From positions 434,001 through 498,000 of the forward strand of contig NC_073415.1 in the NCBI RefSeq assembly GCF_028641065.1: a stretch of DNA of 64,000 nt, given 5' to 3'. Shown here one piece after another: positions 1 to 64,000 of the stretch (its first letter is position 1; each line of letters starts with the position of its first letter). The notes under the pieces were generated by a model. That model was not told where the DNA came from. It ran no database searches and saw only the letters and a program-made list of their open reading frames with translations. Source of the DNA: Leucoraja erinacea. Its lineage: Eukaryota. A program made the position numbers and the translations under genes.

Positions 1-1049
1 TCCACTGGTCCAAAGCTTAACTGCAATAGATACTATTTACCAGCTGGAGTAAGCAGGTTCCTAATCTGCCCGAGACTGCTGTTCACTCAGTAGGGACTAT
101 TCCTTCAGCATTGCAACTGTGTGATACTGTTCGGGGGATTCCTGCAAGTATCCATTCACTCCGGATAAACAAGATCTCTACTCGTAGAAGCAAGGAACTG
201 TAGATGCTGGTTTATACCAAAGATAAACGCAAAGTGCTGGAGTAACTCAGCGGGTCAGGCAGCATCTCTGCAAGAAAAGGGTAGGTGACCCTTCTCCAGA
301 CTGAGGGTAGGGGTGGGTGGAGGAGTAGCTGAAGATCTCTACTTTCCCCCTTTATGAAGATCCATGCTTTTTATGCAGGCACAAGCAATTGCAGATAGAC
401 AAAAGTGCTGGAGAAACTCAGTGGGTGAGGCAGCATCTATGAAGCGAAGGAAATAGGCATCATTGCGTATTTCCTTCGCTCCATAGATGCTGCTGCACCC
501 GCTGAGTTTCTCCAGCACTTTTGTCTATCTTCGATTTTCCAGCATCTGCAGTTCTTTCTTAAACAAGGAATTGCAGATACTAGTTTACAAAAAAGACACA
601 ATGTGCTGGAATAATTTAGCAGGTCAGGCAGCATCTATGGAGGACATGGTTAGGTGACGTTTCGGGTTCTGTCCCCTCATCTAAAGGGGGTCCCAACCCG
701 AAAGGTCGCCTATCCACGTCGCCCAGAGATGCTGTCTGACCCACTGAATTACTCCAGCACTATAGAGAGTTTCTTGTTACACAAATGCTGGTAGAATTTA
801 CCGTCCAATTTAATGATGAGCCCTTGGCTCCTGGAATCTCCGAATCAAAACACAAAGTGCTGGAGGAACTCAGCGGGTCAGGCAGCATCTGTGGAGAGAA
901 TGGTCAAGCGTTGTTCTGGAATTTCCGCCTGAGTCCACACTTTTATCTACTTATTCTGCGAAACCCGAAAACATACAAAGATAGCCTGCACATGCGCAAT
1001 GCTGTTAAACCCAGAACTTTTAAGTGCTACACGATTTCTGGAAGGTTAA

Positions 1050-1669: not shown

Positions 1670-1706
<37 letters not shown>

Positions 1707-2506: not shown

Positions 2507-2881
2507 TCAGTGCAGGAACTGGGTTCCCGTTGCTTGCAAGTATTCCTCCAACCACTCCGCCACCTCAGTTCTACCGGAAGCCCTCGCCATGTCCAGCGCG
2601 GTGTGCCCACTGGAGTTCTTGCGCCAGAAGCACGACTTCGTAGCCAGGAACTGAACGAGGCCAAGATGGCCCTCTTGGGCGGCGAGGTGGATCGGCAGAC
2701 AGCCCGAGGCGTCCTTTATGTCCATGTTCGCGCCGTACTCAACCAGGACCATCATGGTGTCCAGGAAGCCCGTACGGGCCACATCGTGCGCTGGGGTGAA
2801 GCCATTCTTATCCTGGATGTTGGGGTCCGCCCCATTCTTCAGCAGCTCCTCAGCCACAAAGCTGCAGCCCATCATCATCAC
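2507..2881 (-). CDS. CDKN2D: CDKN2D coding exon 2 (124 codons plus stop)
   Basis: Acceptor ctcag|GTG, then [24 protein letters not shown]...[11 protein letters not shown]...[11 protein letters not shown]...[15 protein letters not shown] and PIHLAxQEGH plus a fifth ankyrin repeat match p19. Total 166 aa; intron 2882-11097. Confidence 0.93.
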
Positions 2882-5800
2882 CTGAGGGGGAGATAGACAC
2901 GAGATTAGGATGCCGTGCTTCGGTTTAGCAATTCAAGTTTAATTTTGTACCACATCAGATTGCGTAACAGTCCTTGCACCAGTTTACCTTCATCATTGTA
3001 AATGTTATATCAGTACCACTTGTACTGTTGCCATTCAGCCGGCAACATCCGTGCTGAGCTCGAGCTGGCTTCAAGGATGTGCGAAAAAACTGGAACATCA
3101 GGGAGAAACCCACACAGTTCATGCAAATTCCACGTAGGCAACACCCGAGGCCAGGTCTAAACCAGAGTCCCTGGTAGCAGGGCCAACAGCCAGCCACTCT
3201 GTTACCGAGTTTCCATTATTTCAGTCAATACAGAGACCAGTTCAGTTTAGTTTATTGTCACGTGTACCGAGGTACAGTGAAAAGCTTTTTGTTGCGTGCT
3301 AACCAGTCAGCAGAAAGACAATACAGGATTACAATCGAGCCATTTACAATGTATAGATACATGATAAGGGAATAACGTTTAGTATGGGGAGAGGGCAGGC
3401 ATGGGTTATTGATAGGGATAATCAGTGATGATCACAATGAATGGCGGTGCTGGTTTGAAGGGCCGAATGGCCTCTTCCCTGCACCTATTTTCTATGTTTC
3501 TATGTACAAGGTAAAGCCAGCGAAGTCCGATCAAGGATAGTCCGAGGGTCATCAGAGGTAGATAAGGATGATGTTTTGCATGCTATCCAAACACATTACT
3601 CCAAAGATATACAAGTTTGTAGGCCAATTGGCTTGGTATAAATATAGAATTGTCCCTAGTGTGTAGGATAGCGTTAATGTGAGTGGATCGCTGGTCGATG
3701 CAAACACAGTGGGCCAAAGAGCCTGTTTCTGTGCTGTATCTCTAAACTAAACTAGATCAGATAATACTATACGACTTAATTAATGCGCTGTCATATATAT
3801 GGGTTTGAAGATGGTTCACAACCCGAAACGTCACCCATCTTTTTACTCCAGAGGTGCTGCCTGACCCGCTGATTGACTCCAGCACCCTGTGTCTATCTTC
3901 AGATAATGCTACACATCAATACAATTAAGGCAAACATGTACAATAGGGGAAGATACAGAGTGCAGGATATAGTTCTCAGCATTGTAGTGCATCAGTTCCA
4001 CAAAGTCCAATGTCCGCAATGGGGTAGAGGTGAATAGGACAGTACCCTAGCTTGTGGAAGGACCGTTCAGAAGCCTGATAACAGAGGGGAAGAAGCTGTT
4101 CCCGAGTCTGGTGGTGCGCGCTTTCAATCTTCTGCCTGAAGGGCCTGTCCCACTGTACGAGGTAATTCAAGAGCTCTCCCGAGTTTAAAAAAAAAATCAA
4201 ACTCGTGGTAGGCACGTAGAATGTACGTAGCGGGTACGTCGGAGCTCGGGAGCGTCTCTTAGCGGCTCGTAACGCTAACGGCAGGTACTCGGGAAACGCG
4301 GTAAGCTCGTGAAGATTTTTCAACATGTTGAAAAATGTCCACGAGAGCCCCGAGTACCTACGAGCGGCTATTAGCGTATTTCTCCGAGTTCGAATCAGGG
4401 GAAAACGCAGGAGAGCTCTTGAATTAGCTCGTACAGTGGGACAGCCCCAAATCTTGCAACCACCAACACCACAGATCACCAAGGCTTTTGAAATAGACAG
4501 CCGATAGGGCATTGACCCCTGACGAGGCAATGTGTGTGGATGATAAATCCTGGCCTTGACAGCACCGCTCACAAATAACGACCCAAACGTCACCTATTCA
4601 TTCTCTCTAGAGCCCGCTAAGTTACTCCAGCACATTGTGTCTATCTTTGGTATAAAGCAGCATCAGCAGTACCTTTTTATTACAAGTAGTGAGTCGGTTT
4701 AGACGACCAATGCAGCAAAGACACAAACCCTGCGATCCACTGAGTCCATGCTGGCCATCGTCCATCTATTTACACTTGGATTTTGCATACAGCCTGTCAG
4801 CTAGTCAGCCATTGCCAGCAGCCTTACAACAAGGTCCAGCCACAAGAGCTCAGTAACAATTCCAAGGTCAGATGCACTAATTGGCCTTATCTACAGACTG
4901 GTTATGATTGATGAGAATGTAGGTAGAAGGGGCTTGTGGAATGAACGTGACACAAGGTGGCTGGCTCAGCTCAGAGGCGTTTGTTCTTTGCTTGCTGTCG
5001 TGGGATTCAACAGTTCCTACACACACTTTCTCATCCACTCCCCCTTCATACTAGGAGTAACCTCCCCAAGGCCAATTAACATACAAGCCTGCATATGTTT
5101 GGGATGTGGGAGGAAACCGGAGTATGTGGAAGAAACCCATGCAGTCACAGGAAGAATATGCAAACTTCACACAGACAGCAACTGAAGTCAGGTTCGAATT
5201 TGGCTCTACCCACTGCATCACTGTGTTGGTGGAATTCTCTGCCTCAGAGGGTCGGTTCTCTGGATGCTTTCAAGAGAGAGCTAAATAGGGCTCTTAAAAA
5301 ATAGCGGAGTCAGGGGATATGGGGAGAAGGCAGGAACGGGGTACAGATTGGGGATGATCAGCCATGATCACATTAAATGGCGGTGCTGGCTCAAAGGGCC
5401 GAATGGCCTACTCCTGCACCTATTGTCTATTATACTATCATGGCGTTTATGAAACATTTAGACAGGTACATGGATAGGATAGGTTTGGAGGGATATGGGC
5501 CAAACGGGGATATGGGCAGGTGGGACTAGTGTAGAAGGGACATGTTGGTTGGTGAGGGGAAGTTGGGCCGAAGGGCTTGTTTCTACTCTGCATGACTCTA
5601 GATGCTGCTGGCTGACCCGCTGGGTTACTCCAGCTCATTGTGTCTGTCAAGAACATGACTAGTCAGTTTCCCTCCCAAAGGCTCACAGTGATGGTCTGAC
5701 AGTACTCGAGGGCTGGATCTGGAGAATTGGGTTGGGGTTCTAAGGGCTTTGGTGCACAGGGTGTTATTTTAAAACTGAACATTAGAGAAGGAACCAGAGG

Positions 5801-6413
5801 ATAGAAGTTTAACTGCTGGGTGGATTCCGACTGCATAATTAGAGGGCACCACAATGCAAATAGTACCCTCTCTGCCAGTACATGTCTAATGTATTTCCCG
5901 TTACATTCAGTTTAAAAACAAAAGTCATATGGATTATCATGTGGGAAGGAACCGCAGATGCTGAAGATAGACACAACATGCTGGAGTAACTCAGAGGGAC
6001 AGGTAGCATCTCTGGAGAAACGGAATAGGTGATTTATTGGGTCGAGGGAAGGGTCTGACCCGCTGGGTTACTCCAGCTGTTTGTGTCTGTCAGATGGCAT
6101 ATACATTTGTGCAGGAAGGAAATGCAGATGCTGCTTTAAACCGCAGATGGACACAAAATGCTGAAGTAAGTCAGAGGAACTGGCAGCGTCTCCGGGCAGA
6201 AGGAATGGGTGACGTTTCGGGTCAAGACCCTTCTTCAGGGCGAGCTTTTTGTGTCTATCTTTGGAGTATACGTTTGTCCATTTGTCAAAATAGTGATGTG
6301 CCCCATGGTGGCAACATAGAGTCAGCTGGGGAGAGGAGGAGGAGGGGGAAGGGTTGGTGGCGGAGGGAGGATGGGGGAGGTCTGGCATCAGTTGGCAACT
6401 TTCCCTGTATAAC

Positions 6414-7092
6414 NNNNNNNNNNNNNNNNNNNNNNNNNNNNNNNNNNNNNNNNNNNNNNNNNNNNNNNNNNNNNNNNNNNNNNNNNNNNNNNNNNNNNNN
6501 NNNNNNNNNNNNNNNNNNNNNNNNNNNNNNNNNNNNNNNNNNNNNNNNNNNNNNNNNNNNNNNNNNNNNNNNNNNNNNNNNNNNNNNNNNNNNNNNNNNN
6601 NNNNNNNNNNNNNNNNNNNNNNNNNNNNNNNNNNNNNNNNNNNNNNNNNNNNNNNNNNNNNNNNNNNNNNNNNNNNNNNNNNNNNNNNNNNNNNNNNNNN
6701 NNNNNNNNNNNNNNNNNNNNNNNNNNNNNNNNNNNNNNNNNNNNNNNNNNNNNNNNNNNNNNNNNNNNNNNNNNNNNNNNNNNNNNNNNNNNNNNNNNNN
6801 NNNNNNNNNNNNNNNNNNNNNNNNNNNNNNNNNNNNNNNNNNNNNNNNNNNNNNNNNNNNNNNNNNNNNNNNNNNNNNNNNNNNNNNNNNNNNNNNNNNN
6901 NNNNNNNNNNNNNNNNNNNNNNNNNNNNNNNNNNNNNNNNNNNNNNNNNNNNNNNNNNNNNNNNNNNNNNNNNNNNNNNNNNNNNNNNNNNNNNNNNNNN
7001 NNNNNNNNNNNNNNNNNNNNNNNNNNNNNNNNNNNNNNNNNNNNNNNNNNNNNNNNNNNNNNNNNNNNNNNNNNNNNNNNNNNNNNNNNNNN
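6414..7092. other. Assembly gap (others at 34846-35191, 35556-35755 and 41419-41593)
   Basis: Runs of N. Confidence 1.
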
Positions 7093-8331
7093 TGTCCCCT
7101 CCCTGCAACACAGCTGGAGGATAATGTCAACATTCTCCGCGCCCGTCTTCCTGTCTGCCTGCCTCTCGCAGCTGCGGAGAAGTGCAGACATCTCAATTAC
7201 TACCTTCACCCTGCATTGTGATGATCTGGCTCCAATAACAACCCCAAGGCACACGACTTCTACCAAGTCAATCCTTCCGCACTGGGCAAGAGACGTTCTC
7301 AAGAGCTTTAACAAGAAAAAAAAAATGTAGACACAAAATGCTGGAGTAACTCAGCGTGAAAGGCAGCATCTTTGGTGAGAAGGAATGGGTGACGTTTCAG
7401 GTCGAGACCCTTCTTCAGACAGTAAAAAAAGTGACCTTTCTGACAGCGGAGGAGGCCCAGGACAGAATGAGGTCAAACGCAAATTGGAGGAACAGCACTT
7501 CGGCAGCTTACAGCCCAGTGGTATGAATATTGATTTCTCTAACCTCAAGTTATCCTTGCTTTCCCCCTCTCTCCATCACTCCCCCACCCTAGTTCTCCAT
7601 CTAGTTTCACTGTTGGCCTGATTAATTCGTCCCACATTCCCCTCAGCCAACAATGAACCAATCTACATTTCCTTGAACATTGTCCACTTTGATTTGTCCT
7701 TTTCACACCATAAATGTCTTTGTAACCTTCCATATATCGAGTTTCCATCTCCCCTCACTCGAAGTCTGAAGAAAGGTTTTGACCCAAAACGTCACCCATT
7801 CCTACTCTCCAAAGGTGCTGCCTGTCCCGCTGAGTTACTCCGGCATTTAATGTGTATCTTCGGCATAAACCACACAATTAAAAAAGTGTTTCCTGCAGCA
7901 AATGAGGTCTGGCGTTCAAAGTTTTGCAGCATTCAACACAGTAGCTTATCTTCCACACTCTGTAAGGATCCCATCCAGGAACAGCCAGATGTTGACTCAT
8001 GAGACATTCGTGAAGCCTTTTATCTTCCGAAGTGTCCACCAGGGACTTTACTGGAAGTTGGACAATTTATACTGGACAAGTTTTACATTTATCAAGCCAT
8101 TTAACCAACAAACCCGTACGTCTTTGGAGTGTGGGAAGAAACCGAAGATCTCGGAGAAAACCCACCCAGGTCACGGGGAGAAAGTACAAACTCCATACAG
8201 ACAGCGCCCGTAGTCGGGATCGAACCCGGGTCTCTGGCGCTGCATTTTCGCTGTAAGAGCAACTCTACCGCCGCGCCACAAGCCACATGTAGAGTTTGTA
8301 TTCAGTTTTGGTCACCTTGTTATAGGAAAGA

Positions 8332-8658
8332 CTAGATTAAGTGGGACCCGTTGGGTCCCAGCATCACACATGAGGGCTGGTCACCCAACGCAATATTCCA
8401 TGCTTCCTCCATCTCGCTGGGTTTTATAGTCCCTCCCCCCTGCCACCAGCGCGGGCAGCAGAGAGAATGGCGACATTTTGAAAAACATTAATAACTCTCT
8501 GATTTTTCATCAATGGGAAAAATCCTCCAGTCCAATCCGGCGGCGGGGGACTCTTGAGCGAGGTGGCAAAAAATGACAGCCGTAAGTGGCGGCGTTCTTT
8601 CAGAAATCACGAACAGAAAGTCAAAAAGTGGTCAAGACCTTAGTTTTAGTAATATAGA
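8332..8658 (-). mobile_element. Non-autonomous Helitron (327 bp)
   Basis: On the minus strand it starts TC and ends with the hairpin GGGACCC-AAC-GGGTCCC followed by CTAG. It is inserted between A and T with no TSD, in a CR1 fragment that rejoins cleanly (YRKD/VVKLERAQRRF). Confidence 0.85.
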
Positions 8659-9721
8659 TGTTGTTAAGCTGGAAAGGGCGCAGAGAAGATTTATAAGGAT
8701 GTTGCCATGACTTGAGTGGCGTTGAGAGGGAAAAGTAGATCGACCATGATCACACCATCGGAAACTGGACCACCGTCATAAGTTGTAGGAGCAGAATTAT
8801 GCCATTCGGCCCATCAAGTCTAGTCCGCCATTTAATCATAGCTGATCTATCTTTCCCATTCAACCCCATTCTCCTGCCTTTTCTCCATAACCCTTGACAC
8901 CCTTACTAATCAAGAACCTATCATTCTCCACCTTTAAAATATCCATTGACTTGGCTGCTACAGCCTGATGTGGCAATGAATTCCACAGATTCACCACCCG
9001 CTGACTAAAGAAATTCCTCCTCATCTCCTGCCTAAAGATACGTCCTTTAATTCTGAGGCTGTGTCCTCTGGTCCTAGACTCTCCCACTAGTGGAAGCATC
9101 GTCTCCACCATCCACTCTATCCAGGCCTTTCATTGGACTGGTCTACACCCAACACCTTCAGGAGACACAGCACTGGACTGAAGGCCAACAGCGTCAGGAA
9201 GACCAAGATCATTGACCATGCCTATGACATTAAGTTATAGACACAAAATACTGGGGTAACTCAGCGGGACAGCTGGCATCTCTGAAGAACGTGGATGGGT
9301 GACGTTTTGGGCCAGGACCCTTCCTCAGGGGGCTGAAGATGGGTCCCAACCTGAAACGCCAGTCTGACCAAGGGCCCCGATCAGAAACATTGCCCATCCA
9401 CATTCTCCAGAGATGCTAAAGTTACACACAGTAGTAACTCAACAGGTCAGGCAGTATCTCTGGAGAACTTGGATGGGCGATGTGTTGGGTCGGGACCGTT
9501 CTTCAGACTGAAACTAGAGTGGGGTGGAATACCCGGAGGTAGGAAAATGCCGCTGTGTTACTGGATTAATCCAGCACTGTGTCTTTTTTTGGTATAAACC
9601 AGCATCTGTAGTTCCTTCCTACACATTGTTTAATGTTCCAATCCCCTCTTACTACACCTCTGCCAATAGTCTATCCTTCTGAAACTCAACAACGTACCTC
9701 GGTGACTGCCAATCAATCACC

Positions 9722-9758
<37 letters not shown>

Positions 9759-11097: not shown

Positions 11098-11223
11098 CTG
11101 CAGTGCGGTATGTCCGTATTTATTAACCGCATTGACATTCACCTTCTCTTCGTTTAGAAGACGTTTTACCTCTCGCCAGTTGCCTAGCACCGCAGCACTG
11201 CTTAGCTCTTTGGCGCCGTACAT
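11098..11223 (-). CDS. CDKN2D: Cyclin-dependent kinase inhibitor 2D (p19INK4d), coding exon 1 (42 codons)
   Basis: ATG at 11223 gives MYGAKELSSAAVLGNWREVKRLLNEEKVNVNAVNKYGHTALQ, an INK4 first ankyrin repeat. It ends at a CAG|GTTGGT donor in phase 0, at the usual INK4 intron position (TALQ/VMM). Confidence 0.93.
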
Positions 11224-11600: not shown

Positions 11601-11604
11601 CAAA

Positions 11605-54000: not shown

Positions 54001-56561
54001 TCCTATCAGTTATACTATGATCTTATTAACTTTGTCCTGGTCCGCCAAGATCTGCTGGATCTCCCAGTTGCCAAACACTTCCCATTCCCACACTGACCTT
54101 TCTGTCCTGGGCCTCCTCCACCAACAGAGTGAGACCACACACAAACTGGAGGTCTCGTGTTCGGCTTGGGTAGCTCACAACCTCGACGGTCTGAACATTG
54201 ACTTCTCCAATTTCAGGTAACAGCCCCTTTATCCCCCTCCCTCTCCCTTGCCCCCTCACCCTAGTGCACACACATTTCTCCCAACCTGCTCACCCTGCCC
54301 CAACAACGTGTGTCCCAGGCCTCTGTGGACATTTTATCACACAACAAATGACAGATGATGAGGATATTTACAGGCAACGCCGTATGATGTATGCACAAGC
54401 AGACATTCTCTTAGGCAAGAGAAGCTGGAGAAACTCAGCGGGTGCAGCAGCATCTATGGAGCGAAGGAAATAGGCAACGTTTCGGGACGAAACGTTGCCT
54501 ATTTCCTTCGCTCCATAGATGCTGCTGCACCCTCTGAGTTTCTCCAGCACTGTTGTCTACCTTTCCAGCATCTGCAGTTCCTTCTTAAACACCCGGGTTC
54601 CATCCTGACTACGGAGTACTGTCTATGTGGAGTTTGCACGTTCTCCCCGTGACGTTTCGGGCCGAAACCCTTCTTCAGACTTTTGTCTACCTTCGATTTT
54701 CCAGCATCTGCAGTTCCTTCTTAAACAAATTCTCTTACGCAAGTTTAGTGCGTGTACAGATGGATTTTTTTGGCGACTGTCGGCATCATTGACTGACGTA
54801 ACACATCACCGAAAGGTCGCGGCGTGATGCGGCGGTGATGACGTATTGACGCGCGGCGTTTCCTCAAGTGTCGCACATTTTTTTTGTCGCTGCTGGATTG
54901 TGAAATGTTCAAAATCTTTGGCAAACCCTGGTACGTCAGTCAACGACTCCGGCAGTCGCCGAAAAAACTGGCAAGTAGTTTGACCACAGGTGTGCAGTAT
55001 AGAGTGGTGTACAATATGCTCTGAACATAGACATCTTCACTCCATCTGTACACGCACTAAACTTGCGTAAGCGAATGTTTACTTGGGCATACATCACATG
55101 GCATTGCCTATAAGTATCCTCATCATCTGTCATTTGTTTTGTGATAAAATGTTCTTGACAGAGACTTAAGGCCCTGTCCCACTTTCCCGAGTTACTCACG
55201 AATTCTCCTGAGTTTTCCCCTTGATTCAAACTCGGAGAATGTCCGTAGCGAGTCCGTAGGGGTCCGTAGATATTTTGTAGCGGCTTGTAATGCCAGCCGT
55301 AGGTACACGGGGCATTAGGTAAGTCGGGACGTTTTTTCAGCATGATGAAAAATGTCCACGAGTAAAACAACATAGCTCCGAGTACCCACGGCGGGCATCT
55401 CCGAGTTTGAATCAAGGGGAAACGGGAGAATTTGTGAGTAACTCGGGAAAGTGGGACAGGGCCTTAAGTCTCCTGTCAAGAACATTTTATCACAAAACAA
55501 ATGACAGATGATGAGGATATTTATAGGCAATGCCATGTGATGCCATGTGACAGGGGTTTAAAGTAGCCATGAGAATATTACTGAAGAGACCTAGATGGTA
55601 TATATCAGCCATGATCATATTGAATGGCGGTGCAGGCTCGAAGGGCCGAATGACCTACTCCTGCACCTATTTTCTATGTTTCTGTTTCTATGTATAGTGC
55701 AAGTGAAATGGTTGTGGCTACAGGAATCAATACTTTACAAACTGTCTAAAGAAATTTTATGTATAAATTTATTTGCCAGATTAATGATTCTAAAAATGAA
55801 ATCATCTTGACCTTATCAAACATAAGGTTTAGCATGACACGCTACCAATCCCAGCAGTGGAGACATTGGTATAGTTGGCTCGTTGTCGGACACTGATTCT
55901 TTTTATTCTAGATCTTAAACCATGCTTTTGTATATAGTTTACTGTGTTATTTTATGCAATTTATTCTATGTAAAGCCTTGTCTTTTATCTGACCTTGAGT
56001 CTGTAATAAAGTAAGAAAACTTGCCCCAGTCATCTCCGTTAACCTTTGGCCCTCTTGCCTTAAACATAGAAACATAGAAACTAGGTGCAGGAGTAGGCCA
56101 TTCGGCCCTTCGAGCCTGCACCGCCATTCAATATGATCATGGCTGATCATCCAACTCAGTATCCCGTACCTGCCTTCTCTCCATACCCTCTGATCCCCTT
56201 AGCCACAAGAGCCACATCTAACTCCCTCTTAAATATAGTCAATGAACTGGTCTCGACTACCCTCTAGATATGCCCTCAATCCCACAACATTTCCTTTCTT
56301 TCTTTTTAAATCTTTTTATTTGTTTTTTTTCCAAAAAAGCAAAAATAAAACATAAAAAACAGAGCAAAAAGAATAATGATAAACATAACAATGATACTGA
56401 TACATGGGGATCAGGATTACATTAATAACAGGTATAACCTAAATATGAGACCAGTGTCAAAATACACATTGAATATAGACCTCCCGGTCTCTATGTAAAT
56501 ATAATTAAATCTTTAAAAGGAAACTTATAAATGTAAAAAAAACCCACAAAGATAAAAAGGA

Positions 56562-56596
<35 letters not shown>

Positions 56597-59500
56597 AAAG
56601 AAAGAAAAAAAAAAGAGAAAAATTGATAATAATAAATTACGCATAAAAATAAAATAGATTAAAAAAACAAAGCAAAGCAAAACTGGACTGAACTGAGAAT
56701 TTCAACGATGTTAGTCTGTTTGTCGACATGTCCGTTCCACCCTATAGAGGTAAAATAATTTTTATAATGGTTAAAGAGGGTGCAATTTATGTTGTATCAA
56801 AATGTTCAATAAATTTTCCCCAAGTCTTATCAAATTTAACCAAGGGTTCAACAGTATCACTCCTGATTTTTTTCTGAAGTTATACATGATATCGTTTCAG
56901 AGTACCACTGGAGTATGCCACAACATTTCCATCTGGGAAACTGGGTCTGCCTCTCCACCCTATCTATGTCTCCCATCATTCTATGTACCTCTATCAGGAT
57001 GCCCCCTAAACCTCTGGTGTTCCAGAGAAAATAATCCAAGTTTCGACTCAACTGAAGATTTGGACTTGGAGGAATTGTCAGCCAAGTGGTTCGTTCAGCC
57101 CGTAGTGTCCAAGCTTTTCTCAAGACCGCCCTAATCATCATTAGTTTAGTTTAAAGGTAGACAAAAATGCTGGAGAAACTCAGCGGGTGAGGCAGCATCT
57201 ATGGAGCGAAGGAATAGGTGATGTTTTGTGTCGAGACCCTTCTTCAGACCTGAAAGGTCTCGACCCGAAACGTTACCTATTCCTTCGCTCCATAGATGCT
57301 GCCTCACTCGCTGAGTTTCTCCAGCATTTTTGTCTACCTTCAAATTTTCCAGCATCTGCAGTTCAATCTTAAACATATCAGTTTAGTTTAGTTTAGAGAT
57401 ACAGTGCGGAAGCAGGCACTTTGGCCCACCGAGTCCACGCCGACCAGCGATCCCCGCACATTAACACCATCCTACACACCAATTTCATTGTCCTATCTGG
57501 GACACATGACAATAAAACTCACTCTTGACATGGGGACAATTTACACATACACCAAGCCAACTAACCTACAAACCTGCACGTCTTTGGAGTGTGGGAGGAA
57601 ACCAAAGATCTCGGAGAAAACCCACGTGATCACGGGGGAACGTTTAAGGATAAGGGGGAAATCTTATCGGACCGAGATGAGAAAAACATTTTTCACACAG
57701 AGTGGTGAATCTGTGGAATTCTCTGCCACAGAAGGTAGTTGAGGCCACAGTTAATTGGCTATATTTAAGAGGGAGTTAGATGTGGCCCTTGTGGCTAAAG
57801 GGATCAGGGGGTATGGAGAGAAGGCAGGTACAGGATACTGAGTTGGATGATCAGCCGTGATCATATTGAATGGCGGTGCAGGCTCGAAGGGCCGAATGGC
57901 CTACTCCTGCACCTATTGTCTATGTTTCTATGTTTCTATGTACAAACTCAGTACAGACAGCACCCGTAGTTGGGATCGGACTCGGGTCTCCGCCGCTGCG
58001 AGCGGGGTAAGGCAGCAACTCTACCGCTGCGCCACCGTGGCTGCCCTCTAAGTTTTTATTCATTCTAGTGAAGACTTTGTTGTTGACTTTCCTTCCAACA
58101 GGATGGACCTGTGGCAGATGGGAGATGAGGACATACTCCGTCAGATCCTTCAGTGCGCCCCAGAGCTGGTTGATCATGAGAATCACATCTTCCAAGTTCC
58201 GGGCATCCCGGCGTTTGGGTTCAAGACTGCTCTGAGCACGTTGAATCCTGACACATTCCAGAGTATCCTTGGGGTGACCTCCCTCCTGGGAAACAGCAGC
58301 TTCCCACATCGGTACCAAGACTTCAAGGTAGGACCAGTGTCAATGAGAATAACATATCATACATACAATACACAATACACAATACAATTTATTTGTCACA
58401 TTGAACCTCATAGAGGCTCAAGTGAAATGTTGTTTCTGCTGTCATACATACAAGAAAAAAAGACCCAAGACACAACACAATTTACACAGACATCCATCAC
58501 AGCGCATCTCCACCTCGCTGTGATGGAAGGCAAAAAAACGTATCTCTCCCCTGCACTTCCCTCTCCCCCCGATGTCAGAGTCAAAGTCAGAGCCCAAGTC
58601 AGAGCCCCCGGCGGGCGACAACAATTGTCCCGCGGCCATTAACGCCGCGCCGGGTGGTGCAAGGCCATGCTCCGGGTCTTGTTGTTGGAGCCCCAGGCGG
58701 GCGCTAGCAAGTCCCGCAGCCGTTGAAGCCACGCCGGGCGATGATGTCAGGCCCCACTCCAGGTCATCCTCAACCCCGCTACTCGGGCGGGAGAAGTCGC
58801 CGTTGCGGAAGCCCCGAAAAGCGGTATCCCAGCAGGGACCCGCGGGCTCCCGGTGTTACTGTCTGCCAGACCTGCGGTTGGACCCTCCGAATCCCCGGGG
58901 TCGGGTCGCAGCAGCGCGCCTCCACCGCTCCACCCGTTCCGGACTCGGCCAGCTCCACGATGGTGAGTAGCTCCGCAGCTCCGTGACTGGAGCCCCAGGT
59001 CGTTCCTGCTGGAGGCCGCTCCACGTTGCAGCCCCAACGACAACGGAGACCCGACAGGGAAAAGGTCGGGTTCTCCGTGCAAATTTTAAAAGTTTCCCCC
59101 CCCACCCCCCGCCCCCCACACTCACACACACAATACACATAAACATACCCCATCAAAAAAAAAAATAAAAACTACATTAAAACGGGACAAAAAAATAACA
59201 AAAAACAGACGGACTGCAGAGGCCGCTGCGACGTGAGTTGAATACCATGCGACATACCAGGGACAATTGATAATGTTCCAAATCCCAATCACCCCGTACA
59301 CGAGCACTATCCTTCAAGTCAAGTCAAGCTTATTCCTCACATACACATACGAGATGTGCAGTGAAATGAAAAGTGGCAATGCTCGCGGATTGTGCAAAAA
59401 GACTACAAAATAGAATGGAACAGAATCACATATTCACATATTACATATTTGTGGGAGAAAAATAAAAACAGCAATTTTAACAGGACACCACACAACAGTA

Positions 59501-61760
59501 GAATGGTTCAGTATAGTTAGTCCCTGGTGAGATCGGAGTTTACAGTCCTAATGGCCTCTGGGGAGAAACTCCTTCTCATCCTCTCCGTTCTCACAGCATG
59601 GCAACGGAGGCGTTTGCCTGACCGTAGCAGCTGGAACAGTCCATTGCTGGGGTGGAAGGAGTCTCACCCACTAGGGACAATTTACAGAAGCCAATTAGCC
59701 TACAAAAGGATCAAATGCTTCCTAGAAAGATGTAGAAAATAATCAATCTAAACATACCCGTACCTCTCTGATGTTTATTTTATCCAATCTCACTCTTAGG
59801 TGGCCTTGTGTTTGGGTGTGAACACTTCAACTACCTGGCTTGGCTCTTTAAGTCCATTCCTTACAGTTTTGGAACTGACTGAATTCTACTACCTTAAAGG
59901 TCCTCCAGGCTGCTACAGAGAAGCACTTCAGGCCTATGCACAACTAGGTAAGGAGGAGGCACCAGTGGGTGGGTTTAGAGTCTAGACCAAGGGCGGGGCA
60001 GCGGTAGAGTTGCTGCCTCACAGCGCCAGAGACCAGGATTCGATCCCGACTACGGGTGCTGTCTGTACGGAGTTTGTACGTTCACCCCGTGACCTGCGTG
60101 CGTTTTCTCCGTGACCTCCGGTTTCCTCCCACACTCCAAAGACGTACAGGTTTGTCGGCTAATTGGCTTGGCGTAAGTGTGAATTGTCCCTAGTGTGTGT
60201 AGATAGAGTAAGTGTGTGGGGATTGCTGGTTGGCACTGACAGGGTGGGCCGAAGGGCCTGTTTCCGCGCTGCATTTCTAAACCAAACGGTTGCCCTTGGA
60301 ATTGGGGCATTAGGCCGTCTCGGCTGAGAGGGTCTTGGGCTCAAGTTGCTGTCTATGCGCTGATACAGACATGTCCGTGACAGATGCAATCCCCTTTGGT
60401 TTAGAGATGCAGCGTGGACACAGGCCCTTCAGCCCACCGAGTCCGCGCCGACCAGCGATCCCCGCACACTAATACTATCCTACACACACTGGGGACAATT
60501 TTACAAACTAACCTACAAACCTGAGGTAGACAAAAATGCTGGAGAAACTCAGCGGGTGCAGCAGCATCTATGGAGCGAAGGAAATAGGCAACGTTTCGGC
60601 CCGAAACCCAAAGGAAATAGGCAACGTTTCGGGTCGAAACCCGGAAGGGTTTCGGGCCGAAACGTTGCCTATTTCCTTCGCTCCATAGATGCTGCTGCAC
60701 CCGCTGAGTTTCTCCAGCATTTTTGTCCACCTTCGATTTTCCAGCATCTCCAGTTCCTTCTTAAAAACCTACAAACCTGCAGGTCTTTGGAGTGTGGGAG
60801 GAAACCGGAGCACCCGGAGAAAACCCATTGGGAAAATTTAATTCAGGTGTATAAATTCAGGTGTGTAAATGCAGGTGCATATATTTGAGTGTGTAAAATT
60901 CAGGTGGGTAAACAAACGCTGGTGTGTAAATTTGGATGCGTAAATTCAGGCATGTAAATTCCTATGTGTGCAGGTAAAATTCCCCCAGTGTGTAGGAAGA
61001 GGTGAAATCTGGGATAGAGTCAATAGGAATGTGGGGAGAATACATGGCAGGGAAATTTAGTGAGGGAATGGGCCAGCACAAACTCTATAGGCTGAATGGC
61101 CTCCCGTCGGAACAAAAGTTACAAAAGGCCTGGGTAGAGTGGATGTGGAGAGAATGTTTCCACTAGTGGGAGAGTCTAGGACCAGAGGCTATAGTCTCAG
61201 AATAAAAGGAGTTACCTTTAGAAAGGAGATGAGGAGGAATCACTTCAGCCAGGGGGTGGTGAATCTGTGGAATTCATTGCCACAGACGGCTGTGGAGGCC
61301 AAGTCAACGGATATTTTTAATGTGGAAATACATAGATTCTCGATTAGTAAGGACCCTGTCCCACTTAGGAAACCTGAACGGAAACCTCTGGAGACTTTGC
61401 GCCCCACCCAAGGTTTCCGTGCGGTTCCCGGAGGTTGCAGGTGGTTGCCGGAGGTTGCAGGTAGTGGAAGCAGGTAGGGAGACTGACAAAAACCTCCCAG
61501 AACCACACGGAAACCTTGGGCGGGGCGCAAAGTCTCCAGAGGTTTCCGTTAAGGTTTCCTAAGTGGGACAGGGGCATTTGGGTGTCGGGTTATGGGGAGA
61601 AGGCAGGAGAATACGGTGAGGAGGGGGAGATAGATCAGATATGATTGAATGATATAGATGGGCCGCATGGCCTAATTCTGCTCCACTGAAATGAAGTTAT
61701 GAAAAGTGGAGATTCAGGCTGGTGGGCACTGTGGATCTTGGAATCACCTGAAGATCAGAG

Positions 61761-61794
<34 letters not shown>

Positions 61795-64000
61795 TTCCAG
61801 TACAGGGCCATCTGAAGGAGGTGCTTGGCAAAGTGAAGGGGATGTTGACATTCAGAGTGCAGCTTTCCGAGGGTCAGCACTGGAGTGAGTCCGACATCCT
61901 GACCTATCAGTCAGCATTCATCGAGGCCTTCGCTGACAGCGCTGCCAGAGGACAACAAATATACCTGAAGGTGAGCATAGGAGATGGCCTCCGTCGAAAA
62001 ATGCCCGCCAGCCCACCATGGCTACTCACTGACCTGAAGTAACCGCTCCCTAAGTGATAATTCGCTGGTGAGGCTGCACTTGCAGCACTGTGTTCAGTTT
62101 AGAGATACAGCGCAGAAACAAGTTCTTCTGCCCACCGATTCCACGTCGACTAATGATACCTGTATGCTAGCACTATGCTACACACACTAGGGACAATTTA
62201 CAATTTGACCAGTGTGGTGCAGCGGTAGAGTTGCTGCCTCACAGCGCCGGAGACCCGAGTTTGATCCCGACCATGGGTGCTGTCTGTATGGAGTTTGCAC
62301 GTTCTCCCCGTGACCCGCGTGCGTTTTCTCCGAGATCTTCGGTTTCCCCCCACACTCCAAAGACGTACAGGTTGGTAGGTTAATTGGCTTGGTGTAAATT
62401 CAAAAATGTTCCCTGGTGTGTATAGGATAGTGTTAGTGTGCGGGGATCGCTGGTCAGTGCGGGCTTGGTGGGCCGAAGGGCCTGTTTCTGCGCTGTATCT
62501 CTAAACTAAACTAAACCCATAGTATGACCATAAAATGCTCCAATTTTAGTATCTAATCCACAACCTCCTGCCTAACCTATTGTCCCCCTCTCTTTATTCC
62601 CCCTCATTCACCTGGACGCACACCCCTTTCTCCTTCCCCCTTCTCCCCATACCTATATTCCTTCCTCTAGCTTCACATTTCACTCTTCTCCCATCCTTAT
62701 CTCAGGCTTTTTTTGTCTTTTCACTTTGGCCTTTGTCCAACCATCCGCCCATCGAAACACCCCATCTGTACCCACCTATCACTCGCCAAGCCTTGTCCCA
62801 CCCCCACCTTCCATGTCTTCCAGCTTTCTCTCTCTCCCCCCCCCCCCCAATCAGTCTGGACCAAAGATCCTATAGCGAGCAAGATAGTAGTAGACGTCAA
62901 AGACATAGTACGGTCATGGGCAGATTCGTGGGTAATTTTCGGCCCCATTTCCGTAACCGGCTTCCGTCTCGGCACCAAAGATCCCGTAGCGGAGCTAAGA
63001 TACTAGTGCGGAGACGGAAGCCGGTTACGGAAACATCCTCGTAAAAATAAAAGTTCTTTGGTAAAAATCTTCTCATTTTCAGCAACTAAGTTACAGAGAA
63101 AGGTTGAACAAGTTAGGGCTTTATTCTTTGGAGCGCAGAAGGTTAAGGGGGCACTTGATAGAGGTCTTTAAAATGATGAGAGGGATAGACAGAGTTGACG
63201 TGGAAAAGCTTTTCCCACTGAGAGTAGGGAAGATGCAAACATGGGGACATGACTTGAGAATTAAAGGACAGAAGTTTAGGGGTAACATGAGGGGGAACTT
63301 CTTTACTCAGAGAGTGGTAGCTGTGTGGAATGAGCTTCCAGTGAAGGTGGTGGAGGCAGGTTCGTTTTTATCATTTAAAAATAAATTGGATAGTTAAATG
63401 GACGGGAAAGGTATGGAGGGTTATGGTCTGAGCGCAGGTATATGGGACTAGGGGAGATTATGTGTTCGGCACGGACTAGAAGGGTCGAGATGGCCTGTTT
63501 CCGTGCTGTAATTGTTATATGGTTATTTTCAGAATTTTTATTTATTGACACAAACTGTTCCCCCGCAACGTTGATTACACTGCGGGTCGGGTCAGGTCGG
63601 GTCGGGTTACAGAAATGGATGAAAAATAGGCCCACATTCCGCTCCGTTGCGTACTACACGTCAGCCCATTGCATTTAGCAGGAGTGGTCTATCTTGCTCC
63701 GCTATAGGATCTTTGGTCTGAAGAAGGGTCCCGACCCGAAACGTCACCTATCCACGTTCTCCAGAGATGATTGATGCCTGGCCCGCTGGGTTACTCCGGC
63801 ACTTTGTGTCTTATTTTCCTATTACAGGTGCTCCTGTCATCACCACTCACTCCGTGGAAAATTCTTCCTGTTGTCAAGTACTTTGTGCTGTATTACTTCG
63901 AGGGTCCAGAGGAGTGCTGGCAATCTTTCCCCCAGCACAACACCTTCGGACTTTACCAAACCGTTTTCCTTTCACAGCAAGCAGCAGCGTTTCACTGCCA
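14956..64000 (+). CDS. Uncharacterised multi-exon gene (span; >900 aa, incomplete at both ends) with two tandem homologous modules
   Basis: A chain of about 19 open, non-repetitive exons with GT-AG sites and consecutive compatible phases. Internal protein self-similarity supports the reading frames independently. Confidence 0.85.
16696..16756 (+). CDS. Unknown gene, candidate exon ([20 protein letters not shown])
   Basis: ttcttgtccacag|...|gtaagt (strong donor). Phase-2 exit fits the exon at 21715. May be UTR. Confidence 0.55.
18495..18530 (+). ncRNA. Minimal hammerhead ribozyme motif (representative copy) in a Penelope-like terminal repeat
   Basis: AGGT-CTGAAGA-A-GGGT(TTCG)GCCC-GAAA-C-GTT-GCCT: core CUGANGA/GAAA, stem II with UUCG loop, stem I AGGU/GCCU, palindromic ACGU stem III. 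Confidence 0.7.
19820..20407 (+). mobile_element. CR1 LINE 3' fragment (representative of >15 copies)
   Basis: [19 protein letters not shown]...[14 protein letters not shown]. Others at ~8775(-), 13345(-), 17270(-), 22065, 25500, 26070, 29597, 44285, 44975, 46865, 48455(-), 51895(-), 53585, 57645, 61125 and 63088. Confidence 0.9.
20613..21281 (-). mobile_element. Solo LTR (Gypsy-like, 669 bp)
   Basis: TG...CA termini with a 5-bp TSD GGGAG on both sides. TATATAA and AATAAA are in the right order on the minus strand. Inserted into a V-SINE. Confidence 0.85.
21715..22023 (+). CDS. Unknown gene exon with first RIIa/Dpy-30-like motif
   Basis: ctaac branch point plus ctctctccacag acceptor; ...[44 protein letters not shown]; AG|gtagga, phase 2. 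The in-exon ATG (MSGQISER) is a possible start. Confidence 0.85.
23263..23351 (+). CDS. Unknown gene exon ([30 protein letters not shown])
   Basis: ttacccctag|...CAG|gtgcag, phase 2 to 1. Confidence 0.75.
24535..24630. repeat. (GACTTA)n microsatellite
   Basis: About 15 hexamer units following a SINE (CTAAA)n tail. Confidence 0.9.
24743..24966. mobile_element. Harbinger-type MITE
   Basis: Same TIR, TTA TSD, interrupts a CR1 fragment. Others at 4140-4448, 46369-46656, 50482-50860 and 55169-55464; partial copies near 12815, 22675, 43085 and 54765-54975. Confidence 0.85.
25121..25260 (+). CDS. Unknown gene exon ([20 protein letters not shown]...TSALS)
   Basis: catcccgcag|...|gtgagt, phase 1 to 0. 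Confidence 0.85.
27037..27230 (+). CDS. Unknown gene exon ([15 protein letters not shown]...QQHHLVF)
   Basis: aattccag|...AG|gtaact, phase 0 to 2, open frame of 64 codons. Confidence 0.85.
28310..29095 (+). mobile_element. Penelope-like element 3' end: GIY-YIG C-terminal remnant, pyrimidine-rich UTR and hammerhead motif at 28966-28993
   Basis: Reads [21 protein letters not shown]. Related copies at 7455-7870, 22865-23215, 54085-54220 and 51125-51610 (-) (e.g. KLEEQH...GSLQPSGMNIDFSN), mostly followed by CTGAAGAAGGGTCTCGACCCGAAACGTC. Confidence 0.7.
29257..29305 (+). CDS. Unknown gene exon ([17 protein letters not shown])
   Basis: ctgtttcag|...AAG|gtgagt, phase 2 to 0. Confidence 0.8.
31790..32350. 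repeat. TGCATG-rich minisatellite (~50-60-bp units)
   Basis: Repeats of gttgcatgtt...gacagtatgcatgatcctgtg; an outlying unit at ~31445-31487 is separated by a CR1 insertion. Confidence 0.9.
32404..32585 (+). CDS. Unknown gene exon ([11 protein letters not shown]...[19 protein letters not shown])
   Basis: gtgtctctag|...AG|gtacga, phase 0 to 2. Confidence 0.8.
33120..34590 (-). mobile_element. Rex1/Babar LINE, 5'-truncated RT
   Basis: ORF 33905-34747 has [39 protein letters not shown] and KFADDT. It continues, frameshifted, into 33283-33651 ([27 protein letters not shown]). Confidence 0.9.
35192..35555. repeat. C/T low-complexity tract between two gaps
   Basis: Almost pure pyrimidine, flanked by N runs. 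Confidence 0.8.
35756..35898 (+). CDS. Unknown gene exon, 5' end in assembly gap ([26 protein letters not shown]...)
   Basis: Open frame emerging from the N-gap, donor G|gtgggt in phase 1. Homologous to the exon at 63828. Confidence 0.75.
36490..36684. mobile_element. hAT/Charlie-like MITE
   Basis: TIR C(G)GTGGTTCTTAACC / GGTTAAGAACCACTG. No clear TSD. Confidence 0.7.
37659..37948 (+). CDS. Unknown gene exon (AGAGEWPRN...TDKELQLLE)
   Basis: ttgtatag|...GAG|gtgaga, phase 1 to 0. Confidence 0.8.
38215..39240 (+). mobile_element. CR1 (HER1-like) LINE 3' fragment
   Basis: [12 protein letters not shown]...[22 protein letters not shown] and RTRGHSLRI motifs; (CTATTGT)n tail. Confidence 0.9.
40705..40812 (+). 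CDS. Unknown gene exon ([11 protein letters not shown]...DSEDTQ)
   Basis: ccttatcctccag|...CAG|gtactg, 36 codons, phase 0 to 0. Confidence 0.8.
40960..41418 (-). mobile_element. Second, related Helitron-family fragment (ends in gap)
   Basis: Shares blocks with 8400-8640 (ggttttatagtccct, aataact, atgggaaaaatcctc, aagtggtcaaga). Confidence 0.6.
41807..42001 (+). CDS. Unknown gene exon ([13 protein letters not shown]...LINNFKV)
   Basis: ttgccacag|...|gtgggt, 65 codons, phase 0 to 0. The donor could be 3 nt earlier. Confidence 0.8.
42124..42679. mobile_element. Long-TIR foldback DNA element (~190-bp arms)
   Basis: GGGTGATTTCACGAAAGGTCAC... at the left end with a near-perfect inverted copy at 42489-42679, flanked by TATA on both sides. 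Confidence 0.85.
46713..46841 (+). CDS. Unknown gene exon ([15 protein letters not shown]...GNNQ)
   Basis: ctgcccacag|...CAG|gtaacg, 43 codons, phase 0 to 0. Confidence 0.75.
50137..50247. mobile_element. 111-bp hAT-like MITE
   Basis: TIR CAGTGGCGGACTGG / CCAGTCCACCACTG; TSD atgatgat/atgatggt. Confidence 0.7.
50907..51029 (+). CDS. Unknown gene exon (VYSEYPPHG...NTALLK)
   Basis: cttaccgcag|...AAG|gtaggt, 41 codons, phase 0 to 0. Confidence 0.75.
51096..51129. mobile_element. 34-bp minimal hAT-type element
   Basis: CAAAGAT...ATCTTTG flanked by a perfect 8-bp TSD GTCAAGAC. Confidence 0.7.
53407..53531 (+). CDS. Unknown gene exon with second RIIa/Dpy-30-like motif
   Basis: ccttcacag|[43 protein letters not shown]|gtaaga, phase 0 to 2. 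Confidence 0.85.
54325..55545. mobile_element. Rearranged non-LTR (RTE-like) RT C-terminal fragments with nested insertions
   Basis: DDEDxYRQxxxMYAQ.[31 protein letters not shown] occurs in both orientations. Confidence 0.55.
56300..56925 (-). mobile_element. L1/Tx1-like LINE 3' end
   Basis: The minus strand gives a degenerate ORF2-like end ([11 protein letters not shown]...[13 protein letters not shown]), a T-rich UTR, AATAAA and an A-rich tail. Confidence 0.55.
58102..58327 (+). CDS. Unknown gene exon ([17 protein letters not shown]...HRYQDFK)
   Basis: ccttccaacag|...AAG|gtagga, phase 2 to 0. Confidence 0.85.
59800..59947 (+). CDS. Unknown gene exon ([15 protein letters not shown]...ALQAYAQL)
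   Basis: cactcttag|...G|gtaagg, phase 0 to 1. Confidence 0.85.
61801..61970 (+). CDS. Unknown gene exon ([14 protein letters not shown]...GQQIYLK)
   Basis: (GT)n-gcgtttccag|...AAG|gtgagc, phase 1 to 0. Confidence 0.85.
62214..62515 (+). mobile_element. tRNA-derived V-SINE (HE1-like), representative full-length copy of dozens
   Basis: Pol III A box (tggtgcagcgg) and B-box-like gtttgatcc (GGTTCGATCC in other copies), V-domain GGAGTTTGCACGTTCTCCCCGTG...GGTTTCC, CR1-like tail with (CTAAA)n. Other copies at ~15835, 23565, 27435(-), 27745, 32933, 52520 and 59993. Confidence 0.85.
62862..63715. mobile_element. hAT-type MITE with nested CR1 fragment (63088-63525)
   Basis: TIR CAAAGATCCTATAGCG(G)AGCAAGATAG; imperfect 8-bp TSD gtctggac/gtctgaag. 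Confidence 0.7.
63828..64000 (+). CDS. Unknown gene exon, runs off the window ([11 protein letters not shown]...[17 protein letters not shown])
   Basis: ttcctattacag acceptor, phase 0, open to the window end. Confidence 0.8.
   Translation, partial: MLLSSPLTPWKILPVVKYFVLYYFEGPEECWQSFPQHNTFGLYQTVFLSQQAAAFHC

What the first reader, a model, noticed from the sequence alone, without database searches (positions are those of the whole stretch)
180..63810. Dense population of minimal hammerhead-ribozyme motifs on short Penelope-like termini
Seen in sequence: by eye, at least 25 copies on both strands of CTGAAGA-A-GGGT(NNNN)RCCC-GAAA-C-GTH, e.g. 7766, 10006, 16602, 18499, 28966, 36205, 53265, 63718 and minus-strand copies near 7400, 15170 and 57230. 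Two subfamilies covary: stem II GGGU-CUCG-ACCC versus GGGU-UUCG-GCCC, and GUC-ACC versus GUU-GCC after the core. Stem III is reduced to the palindrome ACGU. Several copies follow a GIY-YIG C-terminal remnant. Established: Penelope-like elements carry minimal type I hammerheads thought to cleave as dimers. Inference: a very high-copy, retrozyme-like family placing many potential self-cleaving sites in the pre-mRNAs of both genes.
Basis: partly seen in the sequence, partly recalled or inferred. Interest (0 to 1): 0.7.

Follow-up and report, generated by a model that had tools for sequence, protein, structure and literature searches.

The report
Penelope retrotransposon ends with minimal hammerheads
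These motifs are the short end pieces of a known kind of jumping gene (a Penelope-like retrotransposon) that carry a known miniature self-cutting RNA motif; about 60,000 copies in this skate-type fish genome keep the motif intact, but scattered single copies likely do not cut the host's RNAs.

Summary
The motif is real: 30 copies within 3 edits of the core, but only 6 exact, among 66-67 fragments of a ~95-130-nt repeat end. It is the pseudo-LTR hammerhead of a Neptune-type Penelope-like element (PLE). The genome holds RT + GIY-YIG frames followed by this motif, and pLTR-ORF partial tandems with the motif 164 nt before the ATG. It has 60,645 intact cores, several times the published counts I saw for coelacanth and Xenopus. 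It is not a retrozyme family: copies are 5'-truncated or fold-back PLE insertions, and tandems of the core are no commoner than tandems of a neighbouring control 28-mer. The subfamily differences are one-sided wobble changes, not compensatory pairs. Helix I has only 2 bp. Cutting of host pre-mRNA is unsupported: within 800 kb of eight genes, copies lie 160 sense / 167 antisense and intact cores 23 / 15. Copy 5' ends do not pile at the cleavage site, and laid RNA reads show no pile of ends. Cleavage itself is untested. The scan found this family before on other DNA of this genome. Verdict: a new, very abundant member of a known kind.

The parts
16602..16693 (+). PLE end, intact minimal hammerhead core (CUCG type) plus tail; helix I 2 bp
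18499..18591 (+). PLE end, intact core (UUCG/GUU type, the type found on young RT-bearing copies); helix I 4 bp, partly from flanking DNA
28966..29060 (+). PLE end, intact core (CUCG type), sense in an intron of gene 2; helix I 2 bp
63718..63813 (+). PLE end, intact core (CCCG type), sense in gene 2, ending just before the exon at about 63822; helix I 3 bp
6145..6238 (-). PLE end, intact core, sense in the intron of the ankyrin-repeat gene, but helix I 0 bp
54649..54682 (-). Intact core without tail, antisense in gene 2
22827..23221 (+). Longest sense PLE 3' piece: GIY-YIG C-terminus (22827-22988), pyrimidine-rich spacer, core at 23092 (G12>A), tail
   Evidence: (tblastn E 4e-20; blastn 79-85%)
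7460..7860 (+). GIY-YIG remnant (7460-7540), spacer, damaged core at 7766, tail
51128..51695 (-). Linker/GIY-YIG remnant (51358-51695) followed by a partial core (51128-51153)
28270..28736 (.). GIY-YIG remnant (28270-28436 +) beside an inverted pair of tails (28479-28551 -, 28665-28736 +)
54080..54562 (.). GIY-YIG remnant (54080-54214 +) beside a fold-back pair joined inside the core (54412-54493 -, 54479-54562 +)
9237..9417 (.). Head-to-head inverted tails (fold-back unit), cores damaged
13103..13299 (.). Head-to-head inverted tails
32692..32881 (.). Head-to-head inverted tails
39847..40041 (.). Head-to-head inverted tails
57155..57339 (.). Head-to-head inverted tails
60525..60732 (.). Fold-back unit with an internal partial duplication; source of the sub-threshold Rfam miRNA matches
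221..63813 (.). Whole population: 66-67 tail fragments on both strands, 34 of 66 in head-to-head pairs within 150 nt
2507..11223 (-). Host gene 1: two coding exons (11098-11223, 2507-2881), ankyrin repeats (INK4/CDKN2-like; name recalled). Intron holds 6 sense and 7 antisense fragments
21809..64000 (+). Host gene 2: uncharacterised protein with homologues found only in sharks and rays, about 16 exons in the window, continuing beyond it. Holds 19 sense and 10 antisense fragments

Best explanation
The motifs are the minimal type I hammerhead in the end repeat (pseudo-LTR) of an RT + GIY-YIG Penelope-like retrotransposon of Neptune type, and the window's copies are its truncated or folded-back ends, likely pasted by the element's enzyme from uncut RNA and likely inert as lone copies in host transcripts. 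Shown: element anatomy (ORF end, ~117-nt pyrimidine-rich spacer, core, tail ending at about +93 or +130, ATG of the next ORF at +164 in tandems); two 3' end classes; target-site duplications; 5' inversions; copy number. Inferred: reverse transcription starts at two internal sites (about +93 and +130 from C3), as shown for the anole PLE, and mostly stops or switches template near the front of the ribozyme. Inferred: the ribozyme works, if at all, as a dimer joined through ACGU/ACGU in the element's own tandem RNA and needs protein help, because helix I is 2 bp and helix III has no loop. Inferred: after insertion the copies decay neutrally, CpG positions first.
For: RT (YIDD) + CX4CXXC linker + GIY-YIG frames of 734-776 aa in G000; the core lies 117 nt after the stop in L083. 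In 7 of 25 loci found with the 5'-most ORF region, the core-bearing repeat sits 163-164 nt before the ATG of the next ORF. Inverted 5' pLTRs in L084, L085, L087, L090, as described for PLEs (PMC8557442). 3' ends are bimodal: peaks near +100 and +135 by all-against-all BLAST on 342 copies; by TSD, 12 of 31 at +91 to +95 and 9 of 31 at +122 to +135. This matches the 30-40-nt PLE 'tail' (PMC11167929). 60,645 intact cores, reversed control 0. No 5' pile-up at the cleavage site: 6 of 194 solitary copies start within 2 nt of it, against 6.6 per 5-nt bin; 0 of 342 start at +28. No sense depletion in 799,700 bases inside eight spectrin-repeat genes: 160/167 for all copies, 23/15 for intact cores, 96/103 for solitary copies, 14/9 for solitary exact cores. 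Helix I is 2 bp or less in 34 of 39 exact cores. The computed double-hammerhead lies 17-28 kcal/mol above the best co-fold for 5 natural copies with helix I, and 26 kcal/mol above the MFE for a natural tandem. RNA reads of 4 runs show no place where many molecules begin or end. The most-mutated core positions are CpG guanines, 21% and 26%.
Against: No cleavage assay was run. ViennaRNA ignores the tertiary core, Mg2+ and proteins, so the energies only show competition. The orientation test is small for intact cores (95% interval for the sense share 0.43-0.76). It uses genes whose span and strand I took from clustered Pfam exon hits, not from annotation, and it does not test 3' UTRs. Cleavage of an intron after splicing commitment might cost nothing and leave no bias. 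Fragmented oligo-dT libraries are poor at showing RNA ends, and only 3-6% of each run was read. The catalytic core is kept in all three subfamily lineages while the upstream spacers diverge, so the ribozyme is probably under selection in the master elements. Only 31 of 182 solitary copies gave an exact TSD of 9 nt or more, against 4-16 in shuffled pairings. I did not check any single copy for an unbroken frame from the ATG to the stop.
Confidence: 0.85

Rival explanations
1. An independent non-autonomous retrozyme family that amplifies through self-cleaved circular RNAs in tandem units.
For: Short copies far outnumber ORF-bearing ones. 112 close tandems of intact cores at gaps of 2-32 nt and 53 at 60-90 nt. 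44-nt arrays of up to 8 intact cores recur at many places of G000:C35. A preprint derives animal retrozymes from pLTRs (bioRxiv 10.64898/2026.07.22.740005).
Against: Under 0.3% of intact cores are in such tandems. A downstream control 28-mer forms tandems equally often per copy: 0.0019 against 0.0018, normalised with local counts of 68 and 33. Copy ends match PLE tail positions, not the cleavage site. No window pair of intact cores is in tandem.
Confidence: 0.05
2. The copies act as self-cleaving sites in host pre-mRNAs or mRNAs, in cis between distant copies or in trans, and affect expression.
For: The tail is abundant in poly(A) RNA: depth about 5,900-7,200 on the tail bin against at most about 490 on ORF bins in three bulk runs. 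An intact copy lies in the 3' UTR of a histone H1.0-like gene.
Against: That H1.0 copy is antisense. No sense depletion. 34 of 66 window fragments and 127 of 326 in other genes are in fold-back pairs that would mask the core as a long hairpin. Published minimal PLE hammerheads are inactive as monomers and weak as dimers (PMC4209133), or need the element's protein (PMC11167929).
Confidence: 0.07
3. The ribozyme is dead even in the master elements; the sequence is kept for another job, such as promoter, leader structure or protein-binding site.
For: Helix I is 2 bp, shorter than the 4-5 bp given for most minimal hammerheads. No compensatory change is seen. Anole PLE insertion in vitro does not need cleavage.
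Against: Every catalytic nucleotide, the extra A before helix II, G10.1-C11.1 and the palindromic 15.2-16.2 pair are kept across subfamilies, and all fixed differences preserve pairing. D. virilis Penelope also has a 2-bp helix I.
Confidence: 0.2
4. The conserved CAG just before the core is a 3' splice site, as in D. virilis Penelope, and splicing supplies a longer helix I.
For: CAG|T preceded by a pyrimidine-rich tract is shared by subfamilies with different spacers. The D. virilis intron ends at helix I.
Against: No donor that would extend helix I was found in L083 or L085, and one inside the ORF in L091. No GT-AG joint to this site among the 15 best-supported joints shown; 115 joints were not shown. 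The strongest loose end at this place proved to be a genomic insertion, not a splice. No sense depletion of copies that keep the tract and AG (23/17).
Confidence: 0.08

Closest known systems
Minimal type I hammerheads in pLTRs of metazoan PLEs (Cervera and de la Pena 2014, PMC4209133; read: parts 1-2 of 4 of the text; 2 supplementary files term-searched, 1 not searchable)
   Same: Core CUGANGA / GAAA / UH, extra nucleotide before helix II, G10.1-C11.1, palindromic 15.2-16.2 with no loop 3, position in the pLTR, most copies dispersed singles from truncated PLEs, some as close inverted pairs.
   Different: Helix II is 4 bp and helix I 2 bp (paper: 7-8 and 4-5 bp for Schistosoma; 2-bp helix I only in D. 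virilis). N7 is A. 60,645 exact cores against about 4,000 in coelacanth and 9,000 in Xenopus (different descriptors, so not strictly comparable). No cartilaginous fish is named in the parts I read or in the supplements searched.
Neptune-clade EN+ Penelope-like elements (Craig et al. 2021, PMC8557442; read: 12 passages)
   Same: [quoted passage not shown]
   Different: Clade assignment here rests on motifs, not on a tree; Nematis is not excluded.
Anolis Poseidon PAc (Frangieh et al. 2024, PMC11167929; read: parts 1-2 of 4)
   Same: Two 3' end classes about 35 nt apart downstream of the hammerhead; no RNA-seq ends at the cleavage site.
   Different: In PAc the ORF starts inside the hammerhead and the RT starts lie in the ORF. 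Here the ATG is 164 nt after C3 and both end classes lie in the leader. PAc cleavage needs the protein; untested here.
Non-LTR retrozymes of animals (passages of PMC7761336; bioRxiv 10.64898/2026.07.22.740005 parts 1-2 of 5 and 8 passages)
   Same: Type I hammerhead, link to PLE pLTRs; the C35 44-nt arrays fit the preprint's formal definition (two or more consecutive units with a complete motif).
   Different: Window copies are not tandem units, are tied to a coding element, and show no evidence of circular RNA.

Membership tests
EN+ Penelope-like element | Single ORF with RT and C-terminal GIY-YIG endonuclease | tested here: met
   L083 775-aa frame: RVT_1 E 5e-6 and GIY-YIG E 0.007, both under Pfam's cut-offs; motifs DKG, YIDD, LIYC..C..IYIGET seen; 921 homologues. 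An unbroken ATG-to-stop frame in one copy was not checked.
EN+ Penelope-like element | Partial tandems forming pseudo-LTRs | tested here: met
   7 of 25 loci have ORF end + spacer + core + tail running into the next ORF
EN+ Penelope-like element | 5' truncation, inverted 5' copies, optional 30-40-nt tail | tested here: met
Neptune clade | CX2-5CXXC zinc-finger-like linker between RT and EN | tested here: met
   CNRKRCNTC in L083; criterion from PMC8557442
Neptune clade | RT groups with reference Neptune elements in a tree | not tested
   No named reference sequences were fetched
Minimal type I hammerhead | Conserved core, extra nucleotide after A9, G10.1-C11.1, palindromic helix III | tested here: met
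Minimal type I hammerhead | Helix I of 4-5 bp | tested here: not met
   2 bp in 25 of 39 exact cores and in the pLTRs of tandem elements; a 2-bp case is published for D. virilis
Minimal type I hammerhead | Compensatory covariation in the helices | tested here: inconclusive
   89% of cells paired against 9-43% for slid controls, but only wobble changes and no excess over shuffles; the copies are too closely related to show it
Minimal type I hammerhead | Self-cleavage as a dimer | not testable with these tools
   Bench test; the computed dimer is disfavoured; no RNA end pile
Non-LTR retrozyme | Tandem units, each with a hammerhead | tested here: not met
   No tandem of intact cores in the window; 112 + 53 pairs among 60,645 cores genome-wide, no more than the control
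Non-LTR retrozyme | Circular RNA intermediates | tested here: inconclusive
   A few 'goes back 31-66' joints in reads match sizes of genomic micro-tandems; no RNase R data

The most novel reading that the evidence does not exclude
The element's RNA starts at the conserved TCAGT three letters before the catalytic core (an Initiator-like word, recalled consensus). Its hammerhead is therefore a half-ribozyme that cuts only when paired, with the element's protein as chaperone. The roughly 60,000 intact genomic copies, thousands of them in transcripts, would then form a pool of trans partners: when the element is active it could cut host RNAs carrying sense copies, or be titrated by them. The 44-nt arrays on C35 would be natural multimers in which this can be assayed.
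Probability: 0.06. Interest if true: 0.75.

Novelty: new member of a known kind. Interest (0 to 1): 0.25.

Why it matters
As it stands, this extends PLE minimal hammerheads to a skate-type genome at unusual scale: 60,645 exact cores, and roughly 0.9 million tail fragments by extrapolation from 8 genes. The role of these ribozymes in vivo is called a mystery in PMC7761336. This family makes the question testable by counting. Its copy ends say the template is mostly uncut, and its intronic orientation says lone copies do no detectable harm. It also supplies young RT-bearing elements and natural multimers for assays. If trans cleavage of host RNA occurred, a transposon ribozyme would be a genome-wide RNA regulator, but I found no support for that.

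Tried and rejected
(1) Rfam scan: no hammerhead family among 49 matches at E<=5; the miRNA matches are fold-back pairs and simple repeats, all below gathering. (2) A seeming second hammerhead family with an AGCU helix III (20 exact copies) would have given true covariation. Rejected: its reverse strand reads, by eye, as the LINE reverse-transcriptase segment seen, and only 1 of 20 loci examined has a PLE remnant nearby. (3) The loose end shared by 845 reads at the CAG was followed as a possible splice; it is a genomic antisense insertion in an H1.0-like 3' UTR. (4) Tandem enrichment around the ribozyme: rejected by the control. (5) A 5' truncation peak at the cleavage site: absent. The -60 to -150 bins are inflated by fold-back partners and were not used. 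(6) The run search listed no RNA holder on record; raw-read runs with the same species label were laid instead. (7) The strand excess in the single-cell run (6,690 against 1,608 on the tail) was not used: library direction is unknown and internal priming can give it. (8) The Atlas look-up of a gene 2 exon gave nothing. (9) Lunse et al. 2017 (PMC5785218) is not held; I saw only its title in reference lists. (10) Paper searches: 'hammerhead ribozyme + skate + Penelope' found 0 papers; 'hammerhead + Leucoraja' found 60, and the 10 listed concern sharks and fisheries; 'Penelope + skate + genome + transposable elements + chondrichthyan' found 2, listings only. Most subscription journals, Repbase, Dfam and bioRxiv supplements were not searchable, so prior description of this family is not excluded. 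(11) No RNA evidence specific to this window's two genes was obtained.

Full report
Observation. The core is the front of a longer repeat. A profile from 15 window copies finds 67 fragments at E<1e-3, about 105 per 100 kb against 41 per 100 kb in eight other genes. Six exact cores are more than the 1.7 expected from the genome mean (P 0.009), so the window is dense but of the same kind as the rest. In G000 (2.19 Gb) one 31-mer occurs 10,833 times and the degenerate intact core 60,645 times; reversed controls give 0. A gene 2 exon matches a database protein labelled Leucoraja erinacea at 100% over 42% of the query, so the host is likely a skate.

What it is. Five GIY-YIG remnants lie in the window, and three of them (7460, 22827, 51358) run through a pyrimidine-rich spacer into a core. 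Searching the genome with the 51455-51787 frame and then with an upstream piece led to frames of 734-776 aa. These carry RT motifs, a CX4CXXC linker and GIY-YIG, with homologues at 62-68% in sharks and rays and about 50% in unnamed and invertebrate records. In L083 the core follows the stop by 117 nt and the insertion has a 14-nt target-site duplication, read by eye. In 7 of 25 loci retrieved with the 5'-most ORF region, the sequence runs ORF end, spacer, core, tail, leader, and an ATG at +163/164 from C3. This is the partial tandem that defines PLE pseudo-LTRs. The young RT-bearing copies mostly carry the UUCG/GUU type. The linker points to the Neptune clade (PMC8557442, passages); no tree was built.

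How the short copies arise. 3' ends fall in two classes about 35 nt apart: near +100 and +135 by BLAST, which overshoots (342 copies), and +91 to +95 (12 of 31) or +122 to +135 (9 of 31) by target-site duplication. In the anole PLE these two ends are internal reverse-transcription starts (PMC11167929), and I infer the same here. Many copies begin at the front of the ribozyme: 17 of the 31 TSD-bounded copies start between -13 and +4. About 10 of the 31 matches may be chance (shuffled pairings 4-16), and this test required a core, so it cannot see later starts. I took this lead from earlier scan notes. Starts at the cleavage site are not enriched: 6 of 194 solitary copies, against 6.6 per equal bin. 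The template was therefore mostly uncut. 34 of 66 window fragments and 127 of 326 elsewhere are head-to-head pairs within 150 nt, with varied junctions. These match the inverted 5' copies known for PLEs and would fold into long hairpins that hide the core.

The ribozyme. It has all features listed for minimal PLE hammerheads (PMC4209133): core, extra A, G10.1-C11.1 and loopless palindromic ACGU. Helix II is 4 bp. Helix I is 2 bp in the tandem elements and in 25 of 39 exact cores; it is shorter in 9 and longer in 5. The subfamilies differ by U-A to U.G in both helices and by C17/U17. Pairing is kept (89% of cells, against 9-43% for slid partners) but there is no compensatory covariation. Computed double-hammerhead dimers are far less stable than alternative folds; this ignores tertiary contacts and protein. 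Published relatives are inactive as monomers and weak as dimers, or cleave only with the element's protein. In a preprint 1 of 9 Xenopus dimers cleaved.

Effect on host RNA. Gene 1 (ankyrin repeats, minus strand) has 6 sense and 7 antisense fragments in its intron; its one intact sense core has no helix I. Gene 2 (plus strand, about 16 exons here) has 19 sense and 10 antisense fragments, with two intact sense cores 35 kb apart. Two more intact cores (16602, 18499) lie between the mapped coding regions. In 799,700 bases within eight spectrin-repeat genes, taken from clustered Pfam hits, orientation is 160/167 for all copies and 23/15 for intact cores; solitary copies give 96/103 and 14/9. The 95% interval for the intact sense share is 0.43-0.76, so strong depletion is excluded and weak depletion is not. 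Control repeats gave 97/68, 103/111 and 137/130. Reads of four RNA runs laid on L083 show the tail far more abundant than the ORF and no place where many molecules begin or end. The commonest junction at the core's front traced to an intact antisense copy in the 3' UTR of a histone H1.0-like gene. RNA evidence specific to this window's genes is missing.

Retrozyme question. Close tandems of intact cores number 112 (gap 2-32) and 53 (gap 60-90), with overlap between array members. A downstream control 28-mer gives 239; per copy the rates are equal, 0.0018 and 0.0019, using local counts of 33 and 68 to normalise. Tandems are thus a general by-product of this element's end. The 44-nt arrays on C35 are the only retrozyme-like form found, and the control word has a similar regional cluster on C1.

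Known and new. This is a member of the EN+ PLEs and works like the published minimal hammerheads; it fails the tandem test for retrozymes. My searches found no paper on this family, but Repbase, Dfam, most subscription journals, Lunse et al. 2017 and some supplements could not be seen. Eight earlier scan notes on other DNA of this genome reach the same family assignment; they are leads, not support. Papers seen: PMC4209133 parts 1-2 of 4 and a term search of 2 supplements; PMC11167929 parts 1-2 of 4; bioRxiv 10.64898/2026.07.22.740005 parts 1-2 of 5 and passages; passages only of PMC8557442, PMC6765202, PMC2377424 and PMC7761336. The names INK4/CDKN2, H1.0 and Initiator consensus, and the SINE/LINE labels of the control repeats, are recalled.

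Verdict. Observation partly confirmed, interpretation partly supported. New member of a known kind; interest 0.25, resting on scale and on the two negative tests (uncut template, no orientation bias).

Noticed in passing
L143:1521-1620 (G000:C37, near 7,620,600): Intact UUCG-type core plus tail inserted antisense in the 3' UTR of a histone H1.0-like gene, upstream of an AATAAA; gives the strongest junction signal in three poly(A) runs.
   Followed up: yes
L150-L155 (G000:C35, 10.6-14.6 Mb): 44-nt tandem arrays of the core (4-8 units, up to 8 intact) inside a fold-back unit, with one shared seam, at many loci with different flanks on one contig. Similar 39-nt arrays on C38 and C347.
   Followed up: partly
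G000:C1:134.6-138.8 Mb: Dozens of 54-nt tandem duplications of the tail (without the core) sharing one seam, clustered in 4 Mb; suggests local spread of a variant.
   Followed up: no
window 63718-63822: A sense copy ends about 9 nt before the acceptor of a gene 2 exon and may supply part of its splice signal.
   Followed up: no
five letters before C3 in all subfamilies (e.g. window 28961-28965): TCAGT is kept while the spacer upstream diverges. It reads as Initiator-like, as a CAG acceptor, and as an inverted repeat of the core's CTGA; several fold-back junctions turn there.
   Followed up: partly
window 21809-64000 and beyond (L165, L166): Uncharacterised multi-exon gene of about 1,050-1,140 aa in relatives, homologues found only in sharks and rays, no Pfam family.
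   Followed up: partly
L168-L182: The antisense strand of a LINE reverse-transcriptase segment mimics a minimal hammerhead (20 exact copies); a likely false positive for descriptor searches.
   Followed up: yes
window 221-903: Six tail fragments, including two inverted pairs, lie downstream of gene 1's stop codon; the only AATAAA/ATTAAA on that strand below 2500 is at about 809, so some may be in the 3' UTR.
   Followed up: no
eight sampled genes (L043-L082, L103-L142): The SINE-like control repeat was mildly sense-biased (97/68, p 0.03, uncorrected for several tests).
   Followed up: no
window 33283-34747 (-) and many shorter pieces: LINE reverse-transcriptase fragments and SINE-like repeats are interleaved with the PLE ends throughout; a 44-nt minisatellite unrelated to the motif lies at 11583-11989.
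   Followed up: no
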